A stretch of DNA of 64,000 bases from the NCBI GenBank assembly GCA_016711085.1, contig JADJTR010000005.1, positions 230,727 through 294,726 on the forward strand, in the 5' to 3' direction. Below, piece after piece: positions 3,794 to 46,310 of the stretch; position 1 is the stretch's first letter; the number at the start of each line of letters is the position of its first letter. The notes under the pieces are model-generated. The model saw only the letters and a list, made by a program, of their open reading frames with translations. It was not told where the DNA came from and did no database searches. The DNA is from Phyllobacteriaceae bacterium (GTDB lineage Bacteria > Pseudomonadota > Alphaproteobacteria > Rhizobiales > Rhizobiaceae). The position numbers and the translations under genes were made by a program.

Positions 3794-4642
3794 TCATTTC
3801 TCCGTTTCGACCAGACCGCGCACGAAAAGGCCTTGCATGAAAACGATGACCAGCACCGGCGGCAGCGCCGCCAGGATCACAGCCGCCATCACCAGGTTCC
3901 ACTGCGGGTCGGCGTCCGCCACCGCGGCCATGCGTTTGATGCCCATGACAATGGTATAGTATTTCGTTTCGGTCGTGATCAGAAGCGGCCACAAATACTG
4001 GTTCCAGCCATAGATGAAGAGAATGACGAACAGTGCGGCCGTGTTGGTGCGGCTCAATGGCAGCAATATATCGATGAAAAAGCGGATCGGCCCCGCGCCG
4101 TCGACGCGAGCCGCTTCGACCAGTTCATCGGGAATCGTCAGGAAAAACTGCCTGAACAGGAATGTCGCCGTCGCCGAGGCGATCAGCGGGATGGAGAGGC
4201 CGGCATAGGAATTCAAAAGGCCGAGATCGGCCACCACCTTGAAAGTCGGAATGATGCGCACTTCCACTGGCAACATCAACGTCAGGAAAATCGCCCAGAA
4301 CGCGGTGAGCCGAAACGGAAAGCGGAAGAATACAATCGCATAGGCAGAAAGGATAGAAATGACGATCTTGCCGATGGCGATCATCAGCGCCATCGCCAGC
4401 GAATTGAGCAGCATCGGCGCCAAAGGCGGGGAGCCTGAGGTGGAAATGCCCTCGTCGAGCAACAGCGCATAGTTCTCCGCCATGTGGGAGCCCGGCCAAA
4501 GCGGCGCCACGCCGGACAAGAACGCCGAGGATTCGTGAGTTGACGCGACGAAGGCGAGGTAAACCGGAAAGACGATGACGGCCACGCCCGCCATCAGGAT
4601 GGCGTGGGACAGGATCGACCGCCAGCGCCCGGCCCCGATCAT
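3794..4642 (-). CDS. ugpE: sn-glycerol-3-phosphate ABC transporter permease
   Basis: 282-aa polytopic membrane ORF with the EAA loop ([15 protein letters not shown]), sitting between ugpA and ugpC. Confidence 0.8.
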
Positions 4643-4652
4643 CGCGGCGCGC

Positions 4653-5536
4653 TCAATATTGCACCCGCCGTTCGATCCACCGGAACTGGATCACGGTAAG
4701 CAACGCGACGAAGGCCATCAGCACGACTGACTGCGCCGCGGACGACCCAAGGTTGAGGCCGATGACCCCGTCGAGATAAACCTTGTAAACGAGAATGTTG
4801 GTCGCCGCCGCCGGTCCGCCTTCCGTGGTCGAATGGATGATGCCGAAAGTGTCGAACATCGCATAGATGACATTGACGACCAGAAGGAAGAACGTCGTCG
4901 GCGACAGCAATGGCAGGACAATGGTGGCAAAGCGCTTCACCGGCCCCGCCCCGTCGATCGCCGCGGCTTCGATCAGCGAATGCGGGATCGCCTGGAGGCC
5001 GGCAAGGAAAACAGGAAATTGTAGGAGAGCTGCTTCCAGCTCGCCGCCAGCACGATGAGGATCATCGCCTGGGTCGAGGATACCCGATGATTCCAGTCAA
5101 CGCCGAGAAGCGACAGGCCATAGGTCAGGATGCCGATGGTCGGGTTGAACATGAACCACCACAGGATGCCGGCGATGGCCGGCGCGATGGCGAAGGGCCA
5201 AACCATCGCCGTCGTGTAGATATTGCGTCCGCGCAACAGCGCATCGGCGTTGGCCGCCAGCAACAGCGCCATTCCCATCGACAGGGCGGCGACGGCGGCG
5301 GCGAACAGCAGCGAAACGCCGAAAGATTCCAGGTATGCGCCGTCGGCAAACAAGCGCCGGTAGTTTTCGAACCAGACGAAGGTCGATTTCATTCCGAACG
5401 GGTCTTCGCGAAGGAACGACGTGCTGATCGCCTGGGCCGCCGGCCACAGGAAAAACACCGCCGTTATCGCCAGTTGCGGCGCCAACAAGGCGTACGGCAA
5501 AAAGCGGTTCGGAAAGGTCGTGCGCTTGGATTGCAT
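4653..5536 (-). pseudogene. ugpA: sn-glycerol-3-phosphate ABC transporter permease, frame broken once
   Basis: N-terminal part is in ORF 4973..5701 (real start MQSKRTTFPN at 5536). C-terminal part is ORF 4653..4940 ([13 protein letters not shown]...). The frames join if one T is restored in the T-run at 5008-5011 (reverse strand), giving ...[32 protein letters not shown]... Confidence 0.8.
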
Positions 5537-5594
5537 GGGAAAGGCGGTTTGACCGGGCGGCAACACAGCCGCCGCCCGGTCATGACCCTGGTGA

Positions 5595-6919
5595 TCAGTT
5601 GGCTGCCTGGAAGTCGCGCAGAATCTGGTTGCCGCGCTGAACCGCCGAATCGAGCGCCTGCTTGCCGGATTTCTTGCCGGCGAGCATCGCCTCGAATTCA
5701 TTGTCGATCACGTCGCGCACTTGCACCAGATTGCCGAAACGCAGACCCTTGGTGTTTTCGTTCGGCGCGGTTCGGGTGATCTGCTTGATGGCGATGTCGG
5801 CGCCGGGCGTTTTGTCGTAAAAGCCCTGGGTCTTCGACAGTTCGTACGCCGCGTTGGTGATGGGCAGGTAGCCGGTGAACTGATGCCAATCGGCCTGGAT
5901 TTCCGGTTGCGACAAGAAAGTGAAGAATTTCGCCACACCCTTGTATTCCTCGGCCGGTCGGCCGTTCAGCGTCCACAAAGTGGCGCCGCCAATGATGGAG
6001 TTCATCGGTTCCTTGGTCGCGTCGTCATAGTAGGGTAGCGGCGCGAAGCCGACCTCGAACCCTTGGCGTTGTTGATGACGCCGGCGCGCGATGCCGACGA
6101 ATTCATGTAAATGGCGCATTCCTGGGAATAGAATTTCGGCGGAGCGTCGTTGCCGCCGACCGGGCCGCCATACTGGTAGAGGCCGGCGTCGTGCCACTTT
6201 TTCATGTTGTCCCAGTGGCGGGCCTGCAGTTCGCCGTTGAACGAGAATTCGGCATCCGTACCGCCGAAACCGTTGGCCTTCGTGCCATAGGGCAGGTTGT
6301 GAAGGGCCGAGAAGTTTTCAAGCTGGACCCAGGACACCCAACCGGTGGTGAATCCGCATTTGGCGGCGCCGGCCTCCATGATCTTTTTGGAGAAGGATTC
6401 CACTTCCGCCCAGGTCTTCGGCGCGACTTCCGGATCGAGACCGGCCTTTTTGAACGCATTCTTGTTGTAATACATGATCGGCGTCGACGAGTTGAACGGC
6501 AACGACAGGATATTGCCGTCGACATCCGAATAGTAGCCGACGACCGGAGCGAGGAAACCGGCCTTGTCGAACGCCTCGCCATTGTCAGCCATCAATTTGT
6601 AGACCGGATACACCGCTCCCTTGGCGGCCATCATTGTTCCCGTGCCGACTTCGAAAACCTGCACAATGGCCGGCTGTTCTTTGGCGCGGAACGCGGCGAT
6701 CGCCGCCGTCAGCGTCTCGGGATAGGTGCCCTTGTAGACCGGCACGATTTTATACTCGCCTTGCGACGCGTTGAACTTGGCGGCGATTTCCTCGAGCTTC
6801 TTGCCCAGTTCGCCGCCCATGGCGTGCCACAGCGAAAATTCGGTGGCGGCAAAGGCGGAAGTGGATGAAAGCAGTAAAACGGCAATGGCGGCAATAGCCG
6901 GGCGGCGGAGGTTTTTCAT
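5595..6919 (-). pseudogene. ugpB: sn-glycerol-3-phosphate-binding periplasmic protein, frame broken once
   Basis: ORF 6002..6919 (signal peptide MKNLRRPAIAAIAVLLLSSTSAFA, WHAMGGELGK, PFNSSTPIMYYNKNAFKKAGLDP) continues in ORF 5595..6197 (FEVGFAPLPYYD...GYLPIT...). Both halves read like E. coli UgpB. A 1-nt slip lies near 6058-6063. Confidence 0.8.
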
Positions 6920-37211: not shown

Positions 37212-37809
37212 TCACGCCAGCATCGGCCACAACGTCGCGGCGAGCGCCACACCCATGGCGATGTTGAACCATTTGAGCCGCGCCGGATCGGCAAGGAAGC
37301 CGCGCAGGCCTTGCCCGAAAGCCGCCCAAAGCGAAACGCAAGGCAAATTGACCAAAGTGAAGACGCCGGCGATGATCGCCACCGAGAAGAATGGCCGGGC
37401 CGGATCGGTGTAGAGCGCCATCGCCGTCACCGCCATCACCCAAGGCTTTCACATTGACCCATTGAAACGCCGCCGCGCCGAGAAAGGTCATCGGTTTGGC
37501 TTCCGCGCCCTTGCCATTCGACAGCGACCGGGCCGAGGCGATTTTCCACGACAGCCACAGCAGATAGGCGCCGCCGGCGATCTTGAGGCCGAGATGCAGC
37601 GCCGGAACCGCGGTCATCAGCGCGCCGAGGCCGAGGCCGACCGCGCAAAGCAGCACGCCGAAGCCGAGCGAGATGCCGAGCATGTGCGGGATCGTGAGGC
37701 GAAAGCCGAAATTCACGCCCGAGGCGAGAAGCATCAGGTTGTTCGGCCCCGGCGTGATCGAGGATACGATGCCGTAGACGGTCAGGGCGAGGATGGTGTC
37801 GAAGCTCAT
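37212..37809 (-). pseudogene. LysE/RhtB-family amino-acid exporter, frame broken once
   Basis: ORF 36865..37809 starts MSFDTILALTVYGIVSSITPGPNNLMLLASG and loses sense after FQWVNVKA. The true C-terminus (WVMAVTAMALYTDPARP...LWPMLA) is ORF 37212..37439. One extra nt lies near 37441-37443. Confidence 0.75.
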
Positions 37810-40701: not shown

Positions 40702-40897
40702 GGGCGCGGATAAAAGGCCCTTCCCCGGCCTGAGTCAAGTGCGCCGAACGGCGCAGGGCGCCGGCTATCCTCTCCCCGCCGGGGGTCCGGAGGACGGGTC
40801 GAGGCAAGCGACTCGACCCCGGAACGGACGAGAGCGCCCGGAACGGGCGCGATCGGGTGAGGGGGCAAACCAGGGTTTGGTTTGTATTGCTTCAATC

Positions 40898-40918
40898 TGT
40901 ATATGATGGCAATATACA
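40898..40918. promoter_or_regulatory. inverted repeat, candidate BrnA operator in the AT-rich brnT promoter region
   Basis: TGTATAT-gatggca-ATATACA ends 3 nt before the brnT ATG (40922). The surrounding ~45 nt are the most AT-rich stretch in this intergenic region. Confidence 0.4.
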
Positions 40919-40921
40919 ATT

Positions 40922-41221
40922 ATGATCGACTGGAGCCTTATCGTTGGGTTCGACTGGGACATCGGCAACGCCCGGAAAAGTGTCGACAAACACGATGTCG
41001 CCCAGGCGGAAGCCGAGCAGGTCTTCTTCAATGAACCTCTGCTCGTGCTGCCGGACGAAAGGCACAGCAGGGATGAGGTGCGCATCCACGCGTTGGGACA
41101 AACCGACGATGGCCGCCTACTGCATTTGACCTTCACGCTGAGGCGGGACGCAACACTGATCCGGGTGATCTCGGCCCGGGACATGAGCCGCAAGGAGCGG
41201 ACGCATTATGAAAAAGCCTGA
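40922..41221 (+). CDS. brnT: BrnT-family toxin (DUF497 ribonuclease type)
   Basis: 99-aa ORF ...FDWDIGNARKSVDKHDVAQAEAEQVF...RIHALGQTDDGRLLHLTFTLRRDATLIRVISARDMSRKERTHYE matches the BrnT pattern (F.WD..K...N..KHGV.F.EA..VF...R.ISAR.A...E...Y). Confidence 0.8.
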   Translation: MIDWSLIVGFDWDIGNARKSVDKHDVAQAEAEQVFFNEPLLVLPDERHSRDEVRIHALGQTDDGRLLHLTFTLRRDATLIRVISARDMSRKERTHYEKA

Positions 41222-41603
41222 ACCCGCCTTCGCCTCGGAAGCCGAGGAACGCGCCTTCTGGGAAAGCCACGATTCGGCCGACCGGCTCGACTGGTCGAAG
41301 GCGGGAAAGCTGCGCCTGCCGAATCTGAAGCCCTCGTCCGTCTCGATTTCGCTGCGCCTGCCGCAATCCCTGCTTGAGCGCATCAAGATCGCCGCCGCCA
41401 AACGCGACGTGCCTTACCAGTCGCTGATCAAGGTCTGGCTGAACGAAAAGGCGGACGGGGAAGGTAAAAGACTACCTCGCCCGAACCGCGCCGACGCCTA
41501 CCGCGACGAAGAGCGGCACGTCCTGCCTCTTCCCTTCCCTGCTTGCGGGGAGGGTGTCGCCCGCAGGGCGACGGGTAGGGGTGGCCGCGAAGCGGCGGCG
41601 TGA
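41208..41603 (+). CDS. brnA: BrnA-family antitoxin with a ~50-aa C-terminal extension
   Basis: Overlaps the brnT end by 14 nt. ...EERAFWESHDS...SVSISLRLPQSLLERIKIAAAKRDVPYQSLIKVWLNEK is the BrnA/CopG-like core. The ORF then reads through a REP-like hairpin pair to the stop at 41603. Confidence 0.75.
   Translation: MKKPEPAFASEAEERAFWESHDSADRLDWSKAGKLRLPNLKPSSVSISLRLPQSLLERIKIAAAKRDVPYQSLIKVWLNEKADGEGKRLPRPNRADAYRDEERHVLPLPFPACGEGVARRATGRGGREAAA
41532..41580. repeat. REP-like double hairpin (solo copy)
   Basis: CTTCCCTGC-tt-GCGGGGAGG followed by TCGCCC-gca-GGGCGA and ACGGGTAGGGG. The same arm-plus-tail architecture recurs at 46265-46300, and related stems recur at 45061-45129. Confidence 0.45.
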
Positions 41604-41652
41604 ACTGCGCATAAGCGCCTTCCTACGGCCCAGTCGACCAAAGAGGACAACC

Positions 41653-43859
41653 TCAGAGCACCAGCGCCAACAATTTCTCGATGGCGTCGCGCAGCGCCAA
41701 CAATGCCGCCTGCCCTTGCGGCGTCGTGGCAATCGATGCCGTCGCACCGATGAAGGCGTAGACCCTTTCGAGAAAGCCGATGGTCCCGAGCACGAACCGG
41801 CGCTTCGGCGTCACGATGGTGGAAGGTTTCCCCGAATCCGCCTGCGTCGGAACGACACTCGACAGATCGGCGGCTTCCTCCCGGATTTGCTGAACAACCC
41901 TGTCGAACGCCGGCGTCGTCATGTCGCTGTCCGAAAGCTCGTTCAGCGCATCCACCACTTTTTCGATCGGTTCCGTCAGTCCCTTGCCGACAGCCTTCTC
42001 CTCGTCGATCGGCGCCTCCGCCATCGCCCGCTCGCGCGCCTCTGGCAGCGGGAAATGGGTAATGAGGAGAAAATGCTTGGCGAAGAACCGGCGGATCAGG
42101 TCGTCGAGTCCTGCCCCCCACATCTCGAAGTCGGCGTGATCGAATTCCTTCTGAAGCGGCCCGAAGAACGACCGCAGGAAATCGGTGTACGGTCGCGTGC
42201 CGCGTTCGCCAAGATGGGTTCGGTAATGAACCAGACAAGACCGAAATACCTTCGGCGCATTTCCGGGCAGGACTTCAATGATAGCATCGGCGAGCGCGCA
42301 TTGCAGACCGGGCATTTCTTTCAGATCGTCAGAGGAAAGCGGCGTATCGAGGTCGGGATTGGCCGTGACGTCAATGCGCGTCTTGCCACCTTCCGCCTTG
42401 CCGATGGGGATCGGCGTTGTCGCGTGTTTGAGGATGCCCTTGAGTTCTTCGCTCGACCTCCGGCCTGGCCGGTAGTCGAGCGCGCGCAGCACCGCGGCGC
42501 GCCGGTCCTCGGCGCTCAATCCGACGAGGTTGGTGTAGACAATTTGCCGGGCCAATGGATTGAGTTCGGTCGGCTTCAACAGGAACGGAAACAATCGGTG
42601 GCGCTCGCCACCGGGATCGGCGGCGTAGGCCGCCGCCCACTCCGCCTGGCAATGATCGGACGCTTCATAGTCCGGCGAATACAAGGCGATCACCCTTCCC
42701 GCTCCGGCCAACCTCGCTGAATCTCGCGCACGAAGTTTGCGCCAGGCTGGAAATCGCGAAACTGGACGCGTGTCGTATATCCGGCGGAACGAACGATCTC
42801 GTCGATCTCGCGCGCGGCGCTTTCGTCCTTGTGCGAATAGCTGATGAAGAAATCCCATTGCGGTCCCCCGCCGGCTTCGGCCACGCCATCGCCGCCCATG
42901 ACAATGGCGCCGGCATCTTGCGCGGGGCGGACTTCGGGGGGATCGGAAGGCGGATCGGCCGGATCGGTCTCGGCTAGTTTGCGCCGGGCTTCCTCGACCC
43001 AGGAGGCGATTTCGCCATTGATCGCCTCCGCCGGCCGATCCCAGAAATCCTTTCGCCCGTCGCCGAGCGCGATGCGGCGGTCGAGTTCCTCGGCCATTTC
43101 GCGCGGCAGGCCGAAAGACGGCGCGGCGGCGACGCGGGCGCGAAACCATTCGCTCCAGATCGGCCAGTTTGTTTTGGGAAAGCGGTCCGGATCGGACGAC
43201 GGCGCGGTCGCCAGAGCCGTATCGAGGTGCCGGTGCTCCTTTTCCCACCAGTCCGGAGCCGCGCCCGGCCACAGCGGCCGGTCGGCCAGTTCGGCCGGCG
43301 GAACGCCGCTTTCTAGCGCTCGCGCATCGGCCGTCACGGCGGCCCAAACGGCGGCGGCGGCTCTGGCGGCGGCGGCGGCGTAGGCGGCGGCTCTGGCGGC
43401 GGCGTAGGCGTAGGCGGCGGCGTAGGCGTAGGCGGCGGCGTAGGCGTCGGCGGCGGCTCTGGCGGCGGCGACGGCTCTGGCGGCGGCTCTGGCGGCGGCG
43501 GCGGCGTAGGCGTAGGCGGCGGCGTAGGCGTAGGCGGCGACGGCGTCGGCGGCGGCTCTGGCGGCGGCGTAGGCGTAGGCGGCGGCTCTGGCGGCGGCTC
43601 GTTCGATTTCGCGGGTCGGATATGTGGCGGCGACCCGCGAAATCGCGTTCGCCCGAAAAACCGCTTCTGTCAAGCGCGGAGCAATCGCCGGATCCGCGAA
43701 TCCGGCGCGCCAGGCGCGACCGGCAAAGGGCAGTGCGCGCATGGCCGCGCGCAGCGCGACGACTTTCGAAAACGCGATGCCATTGCTTTCCGGTCGCGCC
43801 TTCAGCCACGCCTCGACCTGATTGGCGTTCCTAAATCCCCCCTTCGGTATCCCCGCCAT
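41653..43859 (-). pseudogene. TIR-domain protein (~735 codons) with unassigned N- and C-terminal regions; reading frame interrupted once near 42710
   Basis: N-terminal part is in ORF 42690..44075 from MAGIPKGGF (ATG 43859). C-terminal part is in ORF 41653..43809. TIR core is WDFFISYSHKDESAAREIDEIVRSAGYTTRVQFRDFQPGANFVREIQRG / LAGAGRVIALYSPDYEASDHCQAEWAAAYA (about 42470-42854). The halves join if 1 nt is restored at 42708-42713. Confidence 0.75.
43348..43600 (-). repeat. in-frame triplet/hexamer microsatellite encoding an Ala/Tyr/Arg tract inside the TIR gene
   Basis: Plus strand is built only from GGC, TCT, GTA, GTC and GAC triplets. On the coding strand this reads RAAARAAAYAYAAARAAADAVAAYAYAAAYAYAAAAARAAARAVAAARAAADAYAAAYAYAAAYAYAAARAAAYAAAAARAAAA. 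All six frames are open across it. Confidence 0.9.
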
Positions 43860-43941
43860 GATGGGTCCCTTTCCCGCACGCAGAAGTGGCGGGATTGTCG
43901 GGGAAATCAAGGGGCGAGGAGGAATCGTTCCCCTCTCCGGC

Positions 43942-44133
43942 TCGCTTCGCTCGCCACCTTGTAACTCTTCATGTGCCGAATCCGGTATGGTGCCGGTTGC
44001 GGTGGCGGACGGGAGACCGACCCACCTCTGGGCGTGCGAGCCCGTGGGAGGCCGGGTCGCCGTCCGCCGTTCCATCGAACCCGAACAGTCGCATGGGCCG
44101 CAAGCGAAGCCCGTTTAGGCAAGGATGGGAAAG
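43942..44133 (+). ncRNA. candidate IS110 bridge (guide) RNA region, copy A
   Basis: ~190-nt non-coding stretch 5' of the recombinase ORF, GC-rich with several short stem-loops (e.g. GGTGCCGGTTGCGGTGGC...). This is where IS110-subgroup elements encode their bridge RNA. No covariance model was run. Confidence 0.3.
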
Positions 44134-45046
44134 ATGGACGCCATTGTTGTGGGGATCGACGTTTCGAAGGATCGTCTTGACGTATGTGTGACGCCGTCCG
44201 GGAGGCGATGGCTGAAGCCAATGACGCGGCCGGGGTCGAGAAGCTCGCGTTGCCGGGGGCTGACGCCGGCGGTGGCGCTGGGGCGACCGGGGGCTACGAG
44301 ACGCTGGCGGCGGCGCTTTTCGGCTGGGCTTGGCCGTGGTCGTGGTCAACCGGCGCAGGTGCGTTCGTTCGCCGTGCGCTCGGCAAGCGGGCCAAGACCG
44401 ACCCGATCGATGCGGAAGTGATTGCCCGTTTCGCCGCGGCGAGCGGCGTCAGGCCCAAGCCGCTGCCCGATGAACAAAGCCGCTTGCTGGCCGATCTGGT
44501 GACCCGCCGGCGGCAGATCATAGCCATGATCGTGGCCGAGAAGCCCGGCTGAAGCGGGCCGCCAACCGCCAACTCAAAGGCATTGGCCGCCTGCTCGCGG
44601 CGCTTCGGCGCGAACTCAGGACCCTCGACGCCGATCTGGACAAGCAGATACGCAGCTCGCCGGCGTGGCGCATCAAGGAGCAACTGCTGTCGTCCGTGCC
44701 CGGCGTCGGCAAGGCATATCGCGCACCCTGATTGCCGAGCTGCCGGAGATCAGCAGCCTCGACCGCCGCCAGATCGCTTCGCTGGCCGGCCTCGCTCCGT
44801 TCCCCGGCAGTCCGGCAAATGGCGAGGCAAGAGCTTCATCAGCGGCGGCAGGGCGAGCGTGCGCGCCGCCCTCTTCTGGGCGCTTTGGTCGCTTCGCGAC
44901 ACAATCCGTCCTCAAGGCCTTCCGCGACAAACTCGTCGCGCAGGAAAACCAGGATCGTCGCCATCGTCGCGACAGCCCGCAAACTGCTCACCATCCTCAA
45001 CGCCATCATTCGGGAAAACCAACCATGGCGCCAACAAAACGCTTGA
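44134..45046 (+). pseudogene. IS110-family transposase, copy A, multiple frame breaks
   Basis: Pieces are in ORFs 44125..44421, 44184..44552, 44583.., 44665.. and 44732..45046. ATG 44134 is taken as the start because the upstream ATG is out of frame in copy B. Confidence 0.8.
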
Positions 45047-45060
45047 CCGCCAAGACAGTC

Positions 45061-45129
45061 GCTCTCCCCGTGAACGGGGCGAGGTTGAACCAGCGCCTCC
45101 TTTAACCTCGCCCCGCTTGCGGGGAGAGC
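45061..45129. repeat. centre of the IS110 palindrome: two inverted REP-like hairpins around a 17-nt unique spacer
   Basis: GCTCTCCCCG-tgaa-CGGGGCGAGG tt [gaaccagcgcctccttt, 45087-45103] aa CCTCGCCCCG-cttg-CGGGGAGAGC. Confidence 0.7.
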
Positions 45130-45143
45130 GACTGTCTTGGCGG

Positions 45144-46073
45144 TCAAGCGTTTTGTTGGCGCCATGGTTGGTTTTCCCGAATGATGGCGTTGAGGATGGT
45201 GAGCAGTTTGCGGGCTGTCGCGACGATGGCGACGATCCTGGCTTCCCTGCGCGACGAGTTTGTCGCGGAAGGCCTTGAGGGACTGGATTGTGTCGCGAAG
45301 CGACCAAAGCGCCCATGAAGAGGGCGGCGCGCACGCTCGCCCTGCCGCCGCTGATGGGCTTTCGCCTGCCATTTGCCGGACTGGGTGAACGGGAGCGAGG
45401 CCGGCCAGCGAAGCGATCTGGCGGCGGTCGAGGCTGCCGATCTCCGGCAGCCCGGCAATCAGGTGCGCGATATGCCCTTGCCGACGCCGGGCACGGACGA
45501 CAGCAGTTGCTCCTTGATGCGCCACGCCGGCGAGCTGCGTATCTGCTTGTCCAGATCGGCGTCGAGGGTCTCGAGTTCGCGCCGAAGCGCCGCGAGCAGG
45601 CGGCCAATGCTCTTCTTGAGTTGGCGGTTGGCGGCCCGCTTCAGCCGGGCTTCCTCGGCCACGATCATGGCCGATGATCTGCCGCCGGCGGGTCACCAGA
45701 TCGGCCAGCAAGCGGCTTTGTTCATCGGGCAGCGGCTTGGGCCTGACGCCGCTCGCCGCGGCGAAACGGGCAATCACTTCCGCATCGATCGGGTCGGTCT
45801 TGGCCCGCTTGCCGAGCGCATCGGCGAACGAACGCACCTGCGCCGGGTTGACCACGACCACGGCCAAGCCCGCAGCCGAAAGCGCCGCCGCCGCCAGCGT
45901 CTCGTAGCCCCCGGTCGCCTCCAGCGCCACAAGCGCCGGCGTCAGCCCGGCCGCGCAACGCGAGCTTCTCGACCCCGGCCGCGTCATTGGCTTCAGCCAT
46001 CGCCTCCCCGGACGGCGTCACATACGTCAAGACGATCCTTCGAAACGTCGATCCCCACAACAATGGCGTCCAT
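45144..46073 (-). pseudogene. IS110-family transposase, copy B, multiple frame breaks
   Basis: Pieces are in ORFs 45144..45458, 45459..45668, 44912..45607, 44839..45987 and 45993..46223. Start MDAIVVGIDVSKD at 46073. Confidence 0.8.
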
Positions 46074-46264
46074 CTTCTCCCATCCTTGCCTAAACGGGCT
46101 TCGCTTGCGGCCCAGGCGACTGTTCGGGTTCGATGGAACGGCGGACGGCGACCCAGGCTCTCCCACGGGCTCGCACGCCCAGAGGTGGGTCGGTCTCCCG
46201 TCCGCCACCGCAACCGGCACCATACCGGATTCGGCACATGAAGAGTTACAAGGTGGCCCGAAGG
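46074..46264 (-). ncRNA. candidate IS110 bridge (guide) RNA region, copy B
   Basis: Mirror image of 43942-44133 with a few substitutions and indels. Same reasoning as for copy A. Confidence 0.3.
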
Positions 46265-46310
46265 GCCGGAGAGGGGTCGCCCGAAGCCGACGGGTTGGGG
46301 AAAAGCCGCC

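What the first reader, a model, noticed from the sequence alone, without database searches (positions are those of the whole stretch)
41653..43859. Large TIR-domain protein with two unassignable flanking regions: candidate single-gene NAD-targeting defence module
Seen in sequence:
- A reverse-strand reading frame of about 735 codons emerges once one slip near 42710 is bridged.
- It has a central TIR domain (about 42470-42854), with the FISYSHKD start and the C-Q-A-E-W glutamate position that is catalytic in bacterial TIR NADases.
- Upstream of the TIR domain lie ~400 residues: a helical start, the Ala/Tyr/Arg tract, and a Trp-rich segment (PLWPGAAPDWWEKEH...TNWPIWSEWF).
- Downstream lie ~330 helical residues. 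I cannot place either flank in any family.

Comparison with established systems: characterised bacterial TIR systems pair TIR with ThsA (SIR2/SLOG), STING, SAVED, an APAZ/short pAgo, or a STAND NTPase. None of those partners or domains is visible here or in the neighbouring genes.

Inference: the protein is a self-contained sensor-TIR-unknown effector/regulator. Its position beside a BrnTA module and IS110 copies fits a defence islet.
Basis: partly seen in the sequence, partly recalled or inferred. Interest (0 to 1): 0.8.

Follow-up and report, generated by a model that had tools for sequence, protein, structure and literature searches.

The report
Frame-broken TIR gene, two novel flanks
A 735-codon gene places a TIR domain (the NAD-cleaving module of many immune proteins) between two helical domains that match no described family. 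This copy is split by a one-base frame error, but intact relatives define a large, unstudied alphaproteobacterial family that most likely acts in phage defence.

Summary
On the minus strand, 43859..41653 reads as one 735-codon gene once a single missing base at 42711 is bridged. The repaired junction (..REIQRG|LAGAGRVIAL..) matches the consensus of intact homologues.

- **Domains.** Residues 337-452 are a TIR_2 domain (E=2e-24) with the catalytic Glu (E407) in place. The Trp of the WxxxE motif is His.
- **Flanks.** Neither flank matches Pfam, NCBIfam, PADLOC, PDB sequences or PDB/BFVD folds, although both give confident AlphaFold models (pLDDT 86 and 91).
- **N-module family.** The ~300-residue N-module occurs in about 6,000 protein clusters, sometimes in 2-3 tandem copies. 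It is joined to a TIR, to QatA/PifA-like KAP NTPases, or to diverse helical tails.
- **Context.** Genes of the family are solitary. The window's copy sits in a strain-variable islet. A sister strain (flanks 96-98% identical) carries the same N-module with a different tail and no TIR. A third relative has the slot empty.

Best reading: a single-gene sensor-TIR defence protein of a new architecture. No function has been shown. This copy is either freshly inactivated or mis-assembled. A conserved LysE gene 5 kb away carries a similar one-base break, and the adjacent IS110 copies are full of indels. I rate it a new variant of a known kind, of moderate interest.

The parts
41653..43859 (-). Whole gene as repaired: 735 codons plus stop. 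As assembled it is split into two frames.
   Evidence: The start MAGIPKGGF matches the starts of P0025, P0027 and the L028 orthologue.
43620..43859 (-). N-module, helical head (residues 1-80). Conserved W18, L19, A35, R37, R41, P44, R69.
43347..43619 (-). N-module, Ala/Tyr/Arg-rich helices (residues 81-171). This is the most variable part of the family. The DNA is a degenerate tandem repeat of period 18/30.
   Evidence: TRF. AF2 helices with pLDDT 63-79. No homology to the sister-strain allele over this stretch.
42960..43346 (-). N-module, Trp-rich conserved sub-domain (residues 172-300). D178, L196, W197, P202, W235, W238, G245, W273.
   Evidence: pLDDT 93-98. 78% identical to the sister-strain allele.
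42855..42959 (-). Pro/Asp/Gly-rich linker (residues 301-335). Homology with the sister-strain allele ends at ..AQDAGAIVMGG (about residue 324), which is the cassette junction.
42466..42854 (-). TIR domain (residues 336-465), interrupted at 42711.
   Evidence: Pfam TIR_2 E=2.3e-24. PDB 7uxr E=3e-5 and 9mud E=1e-4.
42709..42713 (-). Frame break. The Gly383 codon (42711-42713) and the Leu384 codon (42709-42711) share base 42711, so one base is missing (GGTTGG where GGTTTGG or similar is expected). The frame-A stop lies at 42690-42692.
42640..42642 (-). Codon of Glu407, the putative catalytic glutamate. His403 occupies the position of the WxxxE Trp.
41656..42465 (-). C-module or 'tail' (residues 466-735): a beta-hairpin plus a bundle of about 10 helices, ending in a moderately hydrophobic helical hairpin.
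   Evidence: AF2 pLDDT 91, pTM 0.86. No PDB fold match. hmmsearch. Hydropathy.
40922..41603 (+). Neighbouring BrnT toxin (40922-41221) and BrnA/CopG-type antitoxin (41208-41603), convergent with the TIR gene. Part of the same strain-specific insert.
   Evidence: Absent from L028 and L040.
43953..46257 (.). Two inverted IS110 copies (arms 43953-45089 and 45101-46257). They replace the ~730-bp region that lies upstream of the gene in the sister strain.
40781..46308 (.). Strain-variable islet between ilvI and dppF. It is 5.5 kb here, 3.0 kb in L028 and 270 bp in L040.

Best explanation
The gene belongs to an undescribed family of solitary, cytoplasmic proteins of Alphaproteobacteria.

**Architecture.** The family core is a ~270-300-residue all-alpha N-module followed by a ~250-300-residue helical tail. 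The N-module has a helical head, hypervariable Ala-rich helices and a conserved Trp-rich sub-domain. In a subset, including this gene, a TIR domain is inserted between N-module and tail.

**Most likely mechanism (inferred, not shown).** The protein is a one-gene abortive-infection type immune sensor.
1. The variable N-module and/or the tail keep the TIR domain monomeric and inactive.
2. They respond to an invader-derived cue.
3. Activation drives self-association.
4. Self-association completes the composite TIR active site around Glu407.
5. The active TIR cleaves NAD+, either depleting it or producing a signalling nucleotide.
6. In TIR-less relatives the tail, or an alternative fused module (QatA/PifA-like KAP NTPase, alpha/beta hydrolase, hydrophobic tails), would do the killing.

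**State of this copy.** In this assembly the gene cannot make that protein. One base is missing at 42711 inside the TIR domain. Two IS110 copies have replaced the DNA from about 60-95 bp upstream of the start codon onward. Whether the missing base is a real, very recent mutation or a consensus error of the assembly is about even odds.
For: **Shown**
- TIR_2 domain with invariant C404, E407 and W408. E407 aligns to the catalytic Glu of AbTir and Cat1.
- Intact full-length homologues exist.
- The N-module is a discrete domain in 103 of 112 hits, with 2-3 tandem copies in eight proteins. It is found in 5,994 clusters at E<=1e-3 and 4,411 at E<=1e-10.
- TIR is the only recurrent Pfam partner, in 16 of 67 representatives.
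- Alternative partners are KAP NTPases that match QatA and PifA anti-phage models, and PF05990 or EVE plus KAP.
- The tail classes are mutually related by profile comparison at 82-98% probability. The N-versus-C control gives 4.7%.
- TIR occurs with three different tail classes. The C-module also occurs without a TIR.
- No conserved neighbour appears in about 10 loci. TA modules are often adjacent.
- Plasmid relatives lie beside an Ssp-like phosphorothioation cluster, and beside VapBC, an integrase and IS110.
- The dppF|ilvI slot has three states in relatives.
- The sister-strain allele is 78% identical over residues 172-324 and unrelated over the Ala-rich part. It is replaced by another tail exactly after ..AIVMGG, while the flanks are 96-98% identical.
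- Only one lesion is present in 735 otherwise conserved codons.

**Inferred**
- The sensing role of the N-module and tail.
- Oligomerisation-driven NADase activation, drawn from established knowledge of SARM1, AbTir, TIR-SAVED, TIR-STING and Cat1.
Against: - There is no experimental or statistical (defence-island enrichment) test of a defence role.
- Many homologues sit between housekeeping genes rather than in recognisable defence islands.
- His403 replaces the Trp of the WxxxE motif that contacts substrate in characterised TIR NADases, so catalysis is not assured.
- No relatives were found on viral contigs or phage genomes, and none of the modules is in PADLOC.
- Most members of the wider N-module family have no recognisable effector at all.
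- This copy is broken and its promoter region is displaced. Remnants exist in Bosea genomes.
Confidence: 0.5

Rival explanations
1. The break is real and the locus is a decaying relic. On this reading the TIR gene was inactivated by a one-base deletion, and by IS110 insertion upstream, and it has no present function in this organism.
For: - The frame-A stop lies 7 codons after the slip.
- IS110 copies replace the upstream intergenic DNA.
- Neither half-ORF is in the protein collection, which fits annotation as a pseudogene.
- Decayed relatives exist: a 116-aa remnant in Bosea sp. LjRoot9 and a frameshifted fragment in B. psychrotolerans.
- The housekeeping genes aligned to L028 are, apart from one LysE gene, intact.
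Against: - Only one lesion is present in 2.2 kb, and both halves remain fully conserved.
- A conserved LysE gene 5 kb away carries a similar isolated one-base indel that is absent from two relatives.
- The two IS110 arms differ by about 30 short indels but only about 14 substitutions. That ratio is typical of consensus errors rather than of evolution.
- A Nanopore-derived MAG homologue (L017) shows frameshifts at homopolymers.
Confidence: 0.45
2. The N-module plus tail family has a cellular, non-immune role, for example membrane or envelope stress or regulation. The TIR would then be an accessory NAD-linked regulatory or scaffolding domain rather than an immune effector.
For: - Most family members lack any known effector.
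- Many tails carry a moderately hydrophobic Gly/Ala-rich segment near the C-terminus.
- The genes are often wedged between core genes such as rpoD, rpoBC, rpsL-fusA-tuf, typA and mgsA.
- The Rhizobiaceae copies are syntenic across three genera.
Against: - Presence varies among close relatives, and alleles are swapped.
- The Ala-rich region is hypervariable.
- Fusions to QatA/PifA-like NTPases and to TIR occur.
- The gene decays frequently.
- The distribution is patchy: 23 loci among one genome for each of 185,579 species with the TIR-pattern scan.
Confidence: 0.2
3. The protein is an exported TIR effector aimed at a eukaryotic host or at competing bacteria. This would resemble Brucella BtpA/BtpB, E. 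coli TcpC or polymorphic toxins, with the neighbouring DNA supplying immunity.
For: - The TIR_2 family includes such effectors (established knowledge).
- C-terminal cassette replacement at a fixed junction resembles polymorphic toxins (PMC3482391).
- The lineage (Hyphomicrobiales) contains host-associated bacteria.
Against: - No signal peptide or known trafficking domain was found by Pfam or NCBIfam.
- No secretion-system or immunity gene is conserved next to it in any locus examined.
- The TIR is internal, not C-terminal.
- The source MAG and most hits come from environmental metagenomes.
Confidence: 0.06
4. The slip is a programmed -1 ribosomal frameshift that regulates production of the full-length protein.
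For: - Re-reading one base (GGU then UUG) yields exactly the consensus ..QRG-L...
- L017 has a frameshift within about 5 codons of the same place.
Against: - There is no X XXY YYZ slippery heptamer at the site.
- All other full-length homologues are single ORFs.
- The L017 shifts lie at GGGG and TTTTT runs in a long-read MAG, and a second shift is needed to restore its frame.
Confidence: 0.02

Closest known systems
Bacterial TIR NADases (AbTir, PDB 7uxr) and Cat1, the CRISPR-associated TIR (PDB 9mud)
   Same: - Closest solved TIR domains by sequence (E=3e-5 and 1e-4).
- The catalytic Glu aligns.
- The expected activation is by self-association into an assembly that forms the active site (plus established knowledge).
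   Different: - Only the 130-residue TIR is shared.
- The Trp of WxxxE is His403.
- AbTir has a coiled-coil N-terminus and Cat1 has a CARF sensor. Here the flanks are two unrelated, undescribed helical domains.
Single-protein or effector TIR fusions of defence systems (TIR-SAVED and TIR-STING of CBASS, CAP12/Pycsar TIR, TIR-APAZ of SPARTA, TIR-NLR/Avs-like STAND proteins)
   Same: A TIR domain is coupled to a sensor or regulatory domain within one polypeptide. Weak TIR-only matches occur to SAVED_TIR, Aga_TIR and ThsB models.
   Different: - No SAVED, STING, cNMP-binding, APAZ or P-loop NTPase domain is present.
- No cyclase or pAgo lies next door.
- All of these matches fall below the family cut-offs.
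Thoeris ThsB
   Same: Stand-alone-looking bacterial TIR protein of the TIR_2/ThsB type.
   Different: - The ThsB_TIR HMM scores 12.6 bits against a cut-off of 21.2.
- No ThsA (SIR2/SLOG or Macro) gene was seen in any locus examined.
- This protein is three times larger.
QatA and PifA KAP-family anti-phage NTPases
   Same: Paralogues of the N-module family (P0076, P0106) carry a KAP NTPase matching QatA (E=6e-23) and PifA (E=1e-12) in the position where this gene has a TIR.
   Different: The window gene has no NTPase. The QatA scores are far below the equivalog cut-off, and no QatBCD genes were examined or seen.
Polymorphic toxin / immunity cassette exchange (Zhang et al. 2012, PMC3482391)
   Same: A constant N-terminal part has its C-terminal part replaced at a fixed junction between near-identical strains.
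   Different: - There is no trafficking domain and no adjacent immunity gene.
- Imm5_like, the one family hinted at by a weak fold hit, is not related by profile comparison (probability 1%).

Membership tests
TIR domain (Pfam TIR_2, PF13676) | Profile match above the curated cut-off | tested here: met
   86.7 bits against a cut-off of 28, E=2.3e-24, residues 337-452 of the repaired protein.
Catalytic TIR NADases | Conserved catalytic glutamate in the alpha-C region | tested here: met
   E407 aligns with the catalytic Glu of AbTir (WTEYE) and of Cat1. It is invariant in 13 homologues.
Catalytic TIR NADases | Trp four residues before the Glu (WxxxE) | tested here: not met
   His403 aligns with AbTir W204. 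The position is mostly His in the family.
Catalytic TIR NADases | NAD+ cleavage activity | not testable with these tools
   Needs a biochemical assay of the repaired protein or of an intact homologue.
Thoeris (ThsB + ThsA) | ThsA partner gene (SIR2/SLOG or Macro/TM) adjacent, and a ThsB-type TIR | tested here: not met
   ThsB_TIR is below its cut-off. No such neighbour is present in the window or in about 10 homologous loci.
CBASS / Pycsar TIR effectors | SAVED, STING or cNMP-binding sensor domain, and an adjacent cyclase | tested here: not met
   Only the TIR part of SAVED_TIR matches (E=3e-7, residues 336-428). No such domains appear in Pfam. No cyclase neighbour is present.
STAND / NLR-like TIR proteins (Avs, bNACHT, TIR-NB-ARC) | Central P-loop NTPase (NACHT or NB-ARC) domain | tested here: not met
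   There is no NTPase hit in Pfam, NCBIfam or PADLOC. Both flanks are all-alpha bundles in the AF2 models.
SPARTA (TIR-APAZ + short pAgo) | APAZ domain and an adjacent short pAgo | tested here: not met
   Only weak TIR-only matches to Aga_TIR models. No pAgo is present in the neighbourhood.
Imm5 / Imm5_like immunity domains | Profile-level similarity of the N-module to PF21805 or PF14423 | tested here: not met
   No Pfam hit in 38 N-modules. hhalign against 120 real PF21805 proteins gives a probability of 1%. The Imm5 profile was narrow, so very remote kinship is not excluded.
New N-module family (this report) | ~270-residue profile with W18, L19, R41, P44, R69, D178, L196, W197, W235, W238, W273 | tested here: met
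   hmmsearch E=1e-89 on the window translation. The model has pLDDT 86.
BrnTA toxin-antitoxin (neighbour) | BrnT_toxin and CopG/BrnA antitoxin profiles in an overlapping gene pair | tested here: met
   PF04365 E=2e-22 and PF12441 E=7e-30. The genes overlap by 14 nt.

The most novel reading that the evidence does not exclude
The N-module plus tail proteins are a widespread but so far unrecognised alphaproteobacterial immune-receptor scaffold.
- A hypervariable Ala-rich helical surface would serve as the recognition element. It diversifies through repeat-mediated recombination.
- Output modules would be exchangeable (TIR, QatA/PifA-like NTPase, hydrolase, membrane-active tails) and swapped as cassettes at a fixed linker.
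- The genes would preferentially lodge beside transcription and translation operons.

The TIR version would be a new one-gene NADase defence system with two new folds.
Probability: 0.3. Interest if true: 0.7.

Novelty: new variant of a known kind. Interest (0 to 1): 0.45.

Why it matters
If the family is immune, it adds a new sensor architecture to TIR-based bacterial immunity. Two confidently predicted folds have no PDB counterpart. The architecture would also give a handle on roughly 4,000-6,000 'hypothetical protein' clusters in Alphaproteobacteria, including rhizobia and agrobacteria of agricultural interest.

The three-state locus (empty, N-tail, N-TIR-tail) in near-identical strains is a clean natural example of effector-cassette exchange.

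For this particular window the practical message is more modest. The gene is interrupted as assembled, and the assembly shows signs of residual indel errors. The frame break should not be interpreted biologically until reads are checked.

Tried and rejected
1. **Known-family searches for the flanks.**
   - Pfam, NCBIfam and PADLOC on the whole protein gave only TIR hits.
   - Pfam on 38 N-modules gave nothing.
   - Profile searches of both flanks against PDB sequences gave only noise.
   - Foldseek against PDB gave a best E of 0.35 for the C-module and 1.5 for the N-module.
   - The N-module against BFVD gave a best E of 0.33.

2. **Imm5_like lead.** The lead came from a weak BFVD hit and from my own recollection of Ala-rich Imm5 proteins.
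   - I wrote a consensus-like bait from memory and confirmed that it hits PF21805.
   - I used it only to fetch 120 real PF21805 proteins.
   - hhalign of these against the N-module gave a probability of 1%, so the lead was rejected.

3. **N- and C-modules as diverged copies of each other.** hhalign gave 4.7%, so this was rejected.

4. **BrnTA as a conserved partner.** There were no tblastn hits for the window's BrnT or BrnA in the fetched loci. A Pfam-annotated BrnTA lies 5 kb away, across dnaG-rpoD, in Ciceribacter. BrnTA is not a partner.

5. **Viral or prophage origin.** No relatives were found in IMG/VR with the TIR patterns. There was no phage tblastn hit for the N-module. Scans with the A2 and A3 alignments could not be run because they have no conserved word.

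6. **Source genome or an identical locus elsewhere, to settle the frame.** The GTDB representative scan found nothing closer than 48% identity. Exact-protein look-up identified only the source MAG contig.

7. **Promoter and terminator scan of 41400-44300.** Nothing above the shuffled background.

8. **Literature searches.** Two searches found no description of this architecture.

9. **Look-up of P0035.** Not on record.
Full report
**1. What is in the sequence**

On the minus strand an ORF starts at ATG 43859 (MAGIPKGGF...). It runs 390 codons to a TGA at 42690-42692 and ends ..FVREIQRGWPEREG*. A second frame is open through the same region and continues ..LAGAGRVIALYSPDYEASDHCQAEW... to the stop at 41653-41655.

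The two frames meet at base 42711. Reading Gly383 (GGT) and then re-using the T as the first base of Leu384 (TTG) gives a 735-residue product. In an alignment with 12 intact full-length homologues the repaired junction fits the consensus REMQxGLAxxGRxIALYSP, and G383 and L384 are nearly invariant. The lesion is therefore the loss of one base, most simply GGTTTGG to GGTTGG. There is no other stop or shift in 2.2 kb.

**2. The TIR domain**

- Pfam TIR_2 matches residues 337-452 at E=2.3e-24, across the break.
- The nearest solved TIR domains by sequence are AbTir (7uxr, E=3e-5) and the CRISPR-associated Cat1 (9mud, E=1e-4).
- In both alignments Glu407 falls on the catalytic glutamate.
- C404, E407 and W408 are invariant in the family.
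- One caveat applies. The Trp four residues upstream of the Glu (AbTir W204) is His403 here and in most relatives.

**3. The flanks**

Pfam, NCBIfam and PADLOC give only TIR-region hits.

*Defining the modules.* From 112 database relatives I built profiles of residues 1-335 and 466-735.
- The N profile finds a discrete ~270-residue domain in 103 of the 112 proteins. Eight proteins carry two or three tandem copies.
- The C profile finds 44 proteins.

*Comparison with known families.* Neither module has a PDB relative by profile search, and 38 N-modules give no Pfam hit.

*Structure models.*
- The AlphaFold2 model of the C-module has pLDDT 91 and pTM 0.86. It shows a beta-hairpin followed by about ten helices.
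- The model of the N-module has pLDDT 86 and pTM 0.86. It shows twelve helices. The Ala/Tyr/Arg tract forms long, less confident helices (pLDDT 63-79), and the Trp-rich part scores 93-98.
- Foldseek finds no significant PDB match for either model. The best E-values are 0.35 and 1.5, with TM no higher than 0.3.
- The N-module also has no significant match in BFVD.
- A weak BFVD hit to an 'Imm-5-like' protein was followed up with real PF21805 sequences and rejected (hhalign 1%).

The flank sizes need correcting to 335 and about 270 residues.

**4. The family**

*Size.* A full HMMER scan of 1.84 billion representatives with the N-module profile finds 5,994 clusters at E<=1e-3, 4,411 at E<=1e-10 and 1,716 at E<=1e-30.

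*Partners.*
- Of 67 high-scoring representatives, 16 carry a TIR_2 domain and none carries any other Pfam domain.
- Among the closer relatives, the part after the N-module falls into more than ten BLAST classes.
- The window's C-module class has 36 members with a TIR and 5 without.
- TIR also occurs with two other tail classes.
- Several tail classes, including the window's, are linked by profile-profile comparison at 82-98% probability. The N-versus-C control gives 4.7%.
- Many tails carry a moderately hydrophobic Gly/Ala-rich segment near the C-terminus.
- A few relatives replace the TIR and tail by a KAP NTPase that matches the anti-phage proteins QatA (E=6e-23) and PifA. Others carry PF05990, or EVE plus KAP.

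*Conclusion.* The older unit is N-module plus tail, and the TIR is an optional insert between them.

*Taxonomy.* Named members are all Alphaproteobacteria. They include Rhizobiaceae, Phyllobacteriaceae, Bosea, Methylocystis, Stappia, Hoeflea, Rhodobacterales, Terasakiella and Allosphingosinicella.

**5. Genomic context**

*Source.* The window comes from a Phyllobacteriaceae MAG contig of 300 kb.

*Three states of one slot.*
- A sister strain (L028/L029) is 96-98% identical in the flanking dpp and ilv genes. In the same dppF|ilvI slot it has an intact 625-codon gene.
- The product of that gene is colinear with the window protein up to ..PAQDAGAIVMGG (residue ~324). It is 78% identical over residues 172-324 and unrelated over the Ala-rich helices. 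After the junction it continues into a completely different tail with no TIR.
- That strain has neither BrnTA nor IS110.
- A third, more distant relative (L040) has the slot empty, with 270 bp between dppF and ilvI.
- The window's islet (40781-46308) thus holds BrnT, BrnA, the TIR gene and two IS110 copies.

*Other loci.* Family genes are solitary and have no conserved neighbour. They lie at these sites:
- dnaG-rpoD | gene | DUF930, in three Rhizobiaceae genera.
- rpoBC | gene | uvrB.
- cobT | gene | rpsL-rpsG-fusA-tuf.
- rpmB... | gene | CNNM-aroB-aroK.
- MazE-ParE | gene | typA.
- TA modules | gene | mgsA.

On plasmids, C-module relatives lie beside an Ssp-like phosphorothioation cluster (cysteine desulfurase, DUF4007, ATPase), and beside VapBC, an integrase and IS110. 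No relatives were found on viral contigs or phage genomes.

**6. Is the break real?**

*For a real break.*
- The upstream intergenic DNA has been replaced by two inverted IS110 copies starting 60-95 bp from the ATG.
- Remnants of the family exist in two Bosea genomes.
- Neither half-ORF is in the protein collection.

*For an artefact.*
- The two IS110 arms differ by about 30 indels of 1-3 nt but only about 14 substitutions, and both transposase frames are broken. That pattern is typical of consensus errors.
- A LysE-family gene at 37212-37809 is about 95% identical at the DNA level to the orthologues of the sister strain. It carries an isolated one-base insertion at 37443 that splits it, although it is intact in L028 and L040.
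- The homologue in a long-read MAG (L017) has two frameshifts at GGGG and TTTTT runs.
- From memory only, the accession range of this MAG fits a Nanopore-based activated-sludge MAG project. I could not verify this.

I put the odds near even. A programmed -1 frameshift is very unlikely, because there is no slippery heptamer and the other homologues are single ORFs.

**7. Mechanism**

*Shown.* The domain architecture, the conserved catalytic Glu, modular exchange, strain-level presence/absence and the solitary gene organisation.

*Inferred from established TIR biology (SARM1, AbTir, TIR-SAVED, TIR-STING, Cat1).* The flanking domains hold the TIR inactive. On a cue they promote self-association, which builds the NADase site. 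NAD+ loss or a nucleotide signal then stops the infected cell.

*Which flank senses.* This is unknown. The hypervariable Ala-rich helices of the N-module and the highly diversified tails are both candidates.

*Rival readings.* A non-immune cellular role, or an exported effector. Both are less consistent with the variability, the fusion partners and the absence of trafficking signals.

**8. Verdict**

The thing is a new architectural variant of TIR-domain conflict proteins, built on a large, undescribed two-domain family. This particular copy is interrupted as assembled. Interest is moderate (0.45).

Noticed in passing
window 43953-45089 and 45101-46257: Two IS110 copies form a near-perfect 2.3-kb palindrome with an 11-nt centre. 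The arms differ by about 30 short indels against about 14 substitutions, and both transposase frames are broken. This looks like a mis-polished or collapsed repeat, or an assembly artefact, rather than two naturally diverged copies.
   Followed up: partly
window 37212-37809 (minus strand), indel at 37443: A LysE-family exporter gene is split by a single extra base (CCCAAGG against CCCAGG). It is intact (198 aa) in the two related contigs L028 and L040. This is a second isolated one-base frame break within 5 kb of the TIR gene.
   Followed up: yes
window 40781-46308; L028 8618-11605; L040 2710-2981: The dppF|ilvI intergenic slot exists in three states in related genomes: empty, N-module gene with another tail, and N-TIR-C plus BrnTA plus 2x IS110.
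   Followed up: yes
L001, L002, L004, L031, L035, L037, L038: In independent lineages, family genes lie directly beside transcription or translation genes (rpoD, rpoBC, rpsL-rpsG-fusA-tuf, rpmB, typA). This is unexplained. It could reflect insertion hot spots or something functional.
   Followed up: no
L017 10960-11400: The homologue in a long-read MAG has a frameshift within about 5 codons of the window's break (after ..REMQRG, at a GGGG run). A second, frame-restoring shift lies at a TTTTT run about 360 nt downstream.
   Followed up: partly
L025 9935-10285 (Bosea sp. LjRoot9) and L027 (B. psychrotolerans): A 116-aa remnant consists of the second half of the TIR fused to the last ~10 residues of the C-module. 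It lies beside mgsA, the same site as the fuller gene in L030. L027 holds a frameshifted TIR fragment. The family decays in place.
   Followed up: partly
L040 5075-5738; L028 14269-14890; L030; L035: Type II toxin-antitoxin pairs (MazE-PIN, MazE-PemK, MazE-ParE, Phd-PIN, HicB) are scattered through these neighbourhoods. One pair is inserted between ilvI and ilvH in L040.
   Followed up: no
window 41208-41603: The BrnA/CopG antitoxin ORF is 131 aa, but the profile covers only residues 4-81. The Arg/Gly-rich C-terminal extension runs into the 50-bp gap before the convergent TIR gene and may not be genuine coding sequence.
   Followed up: no
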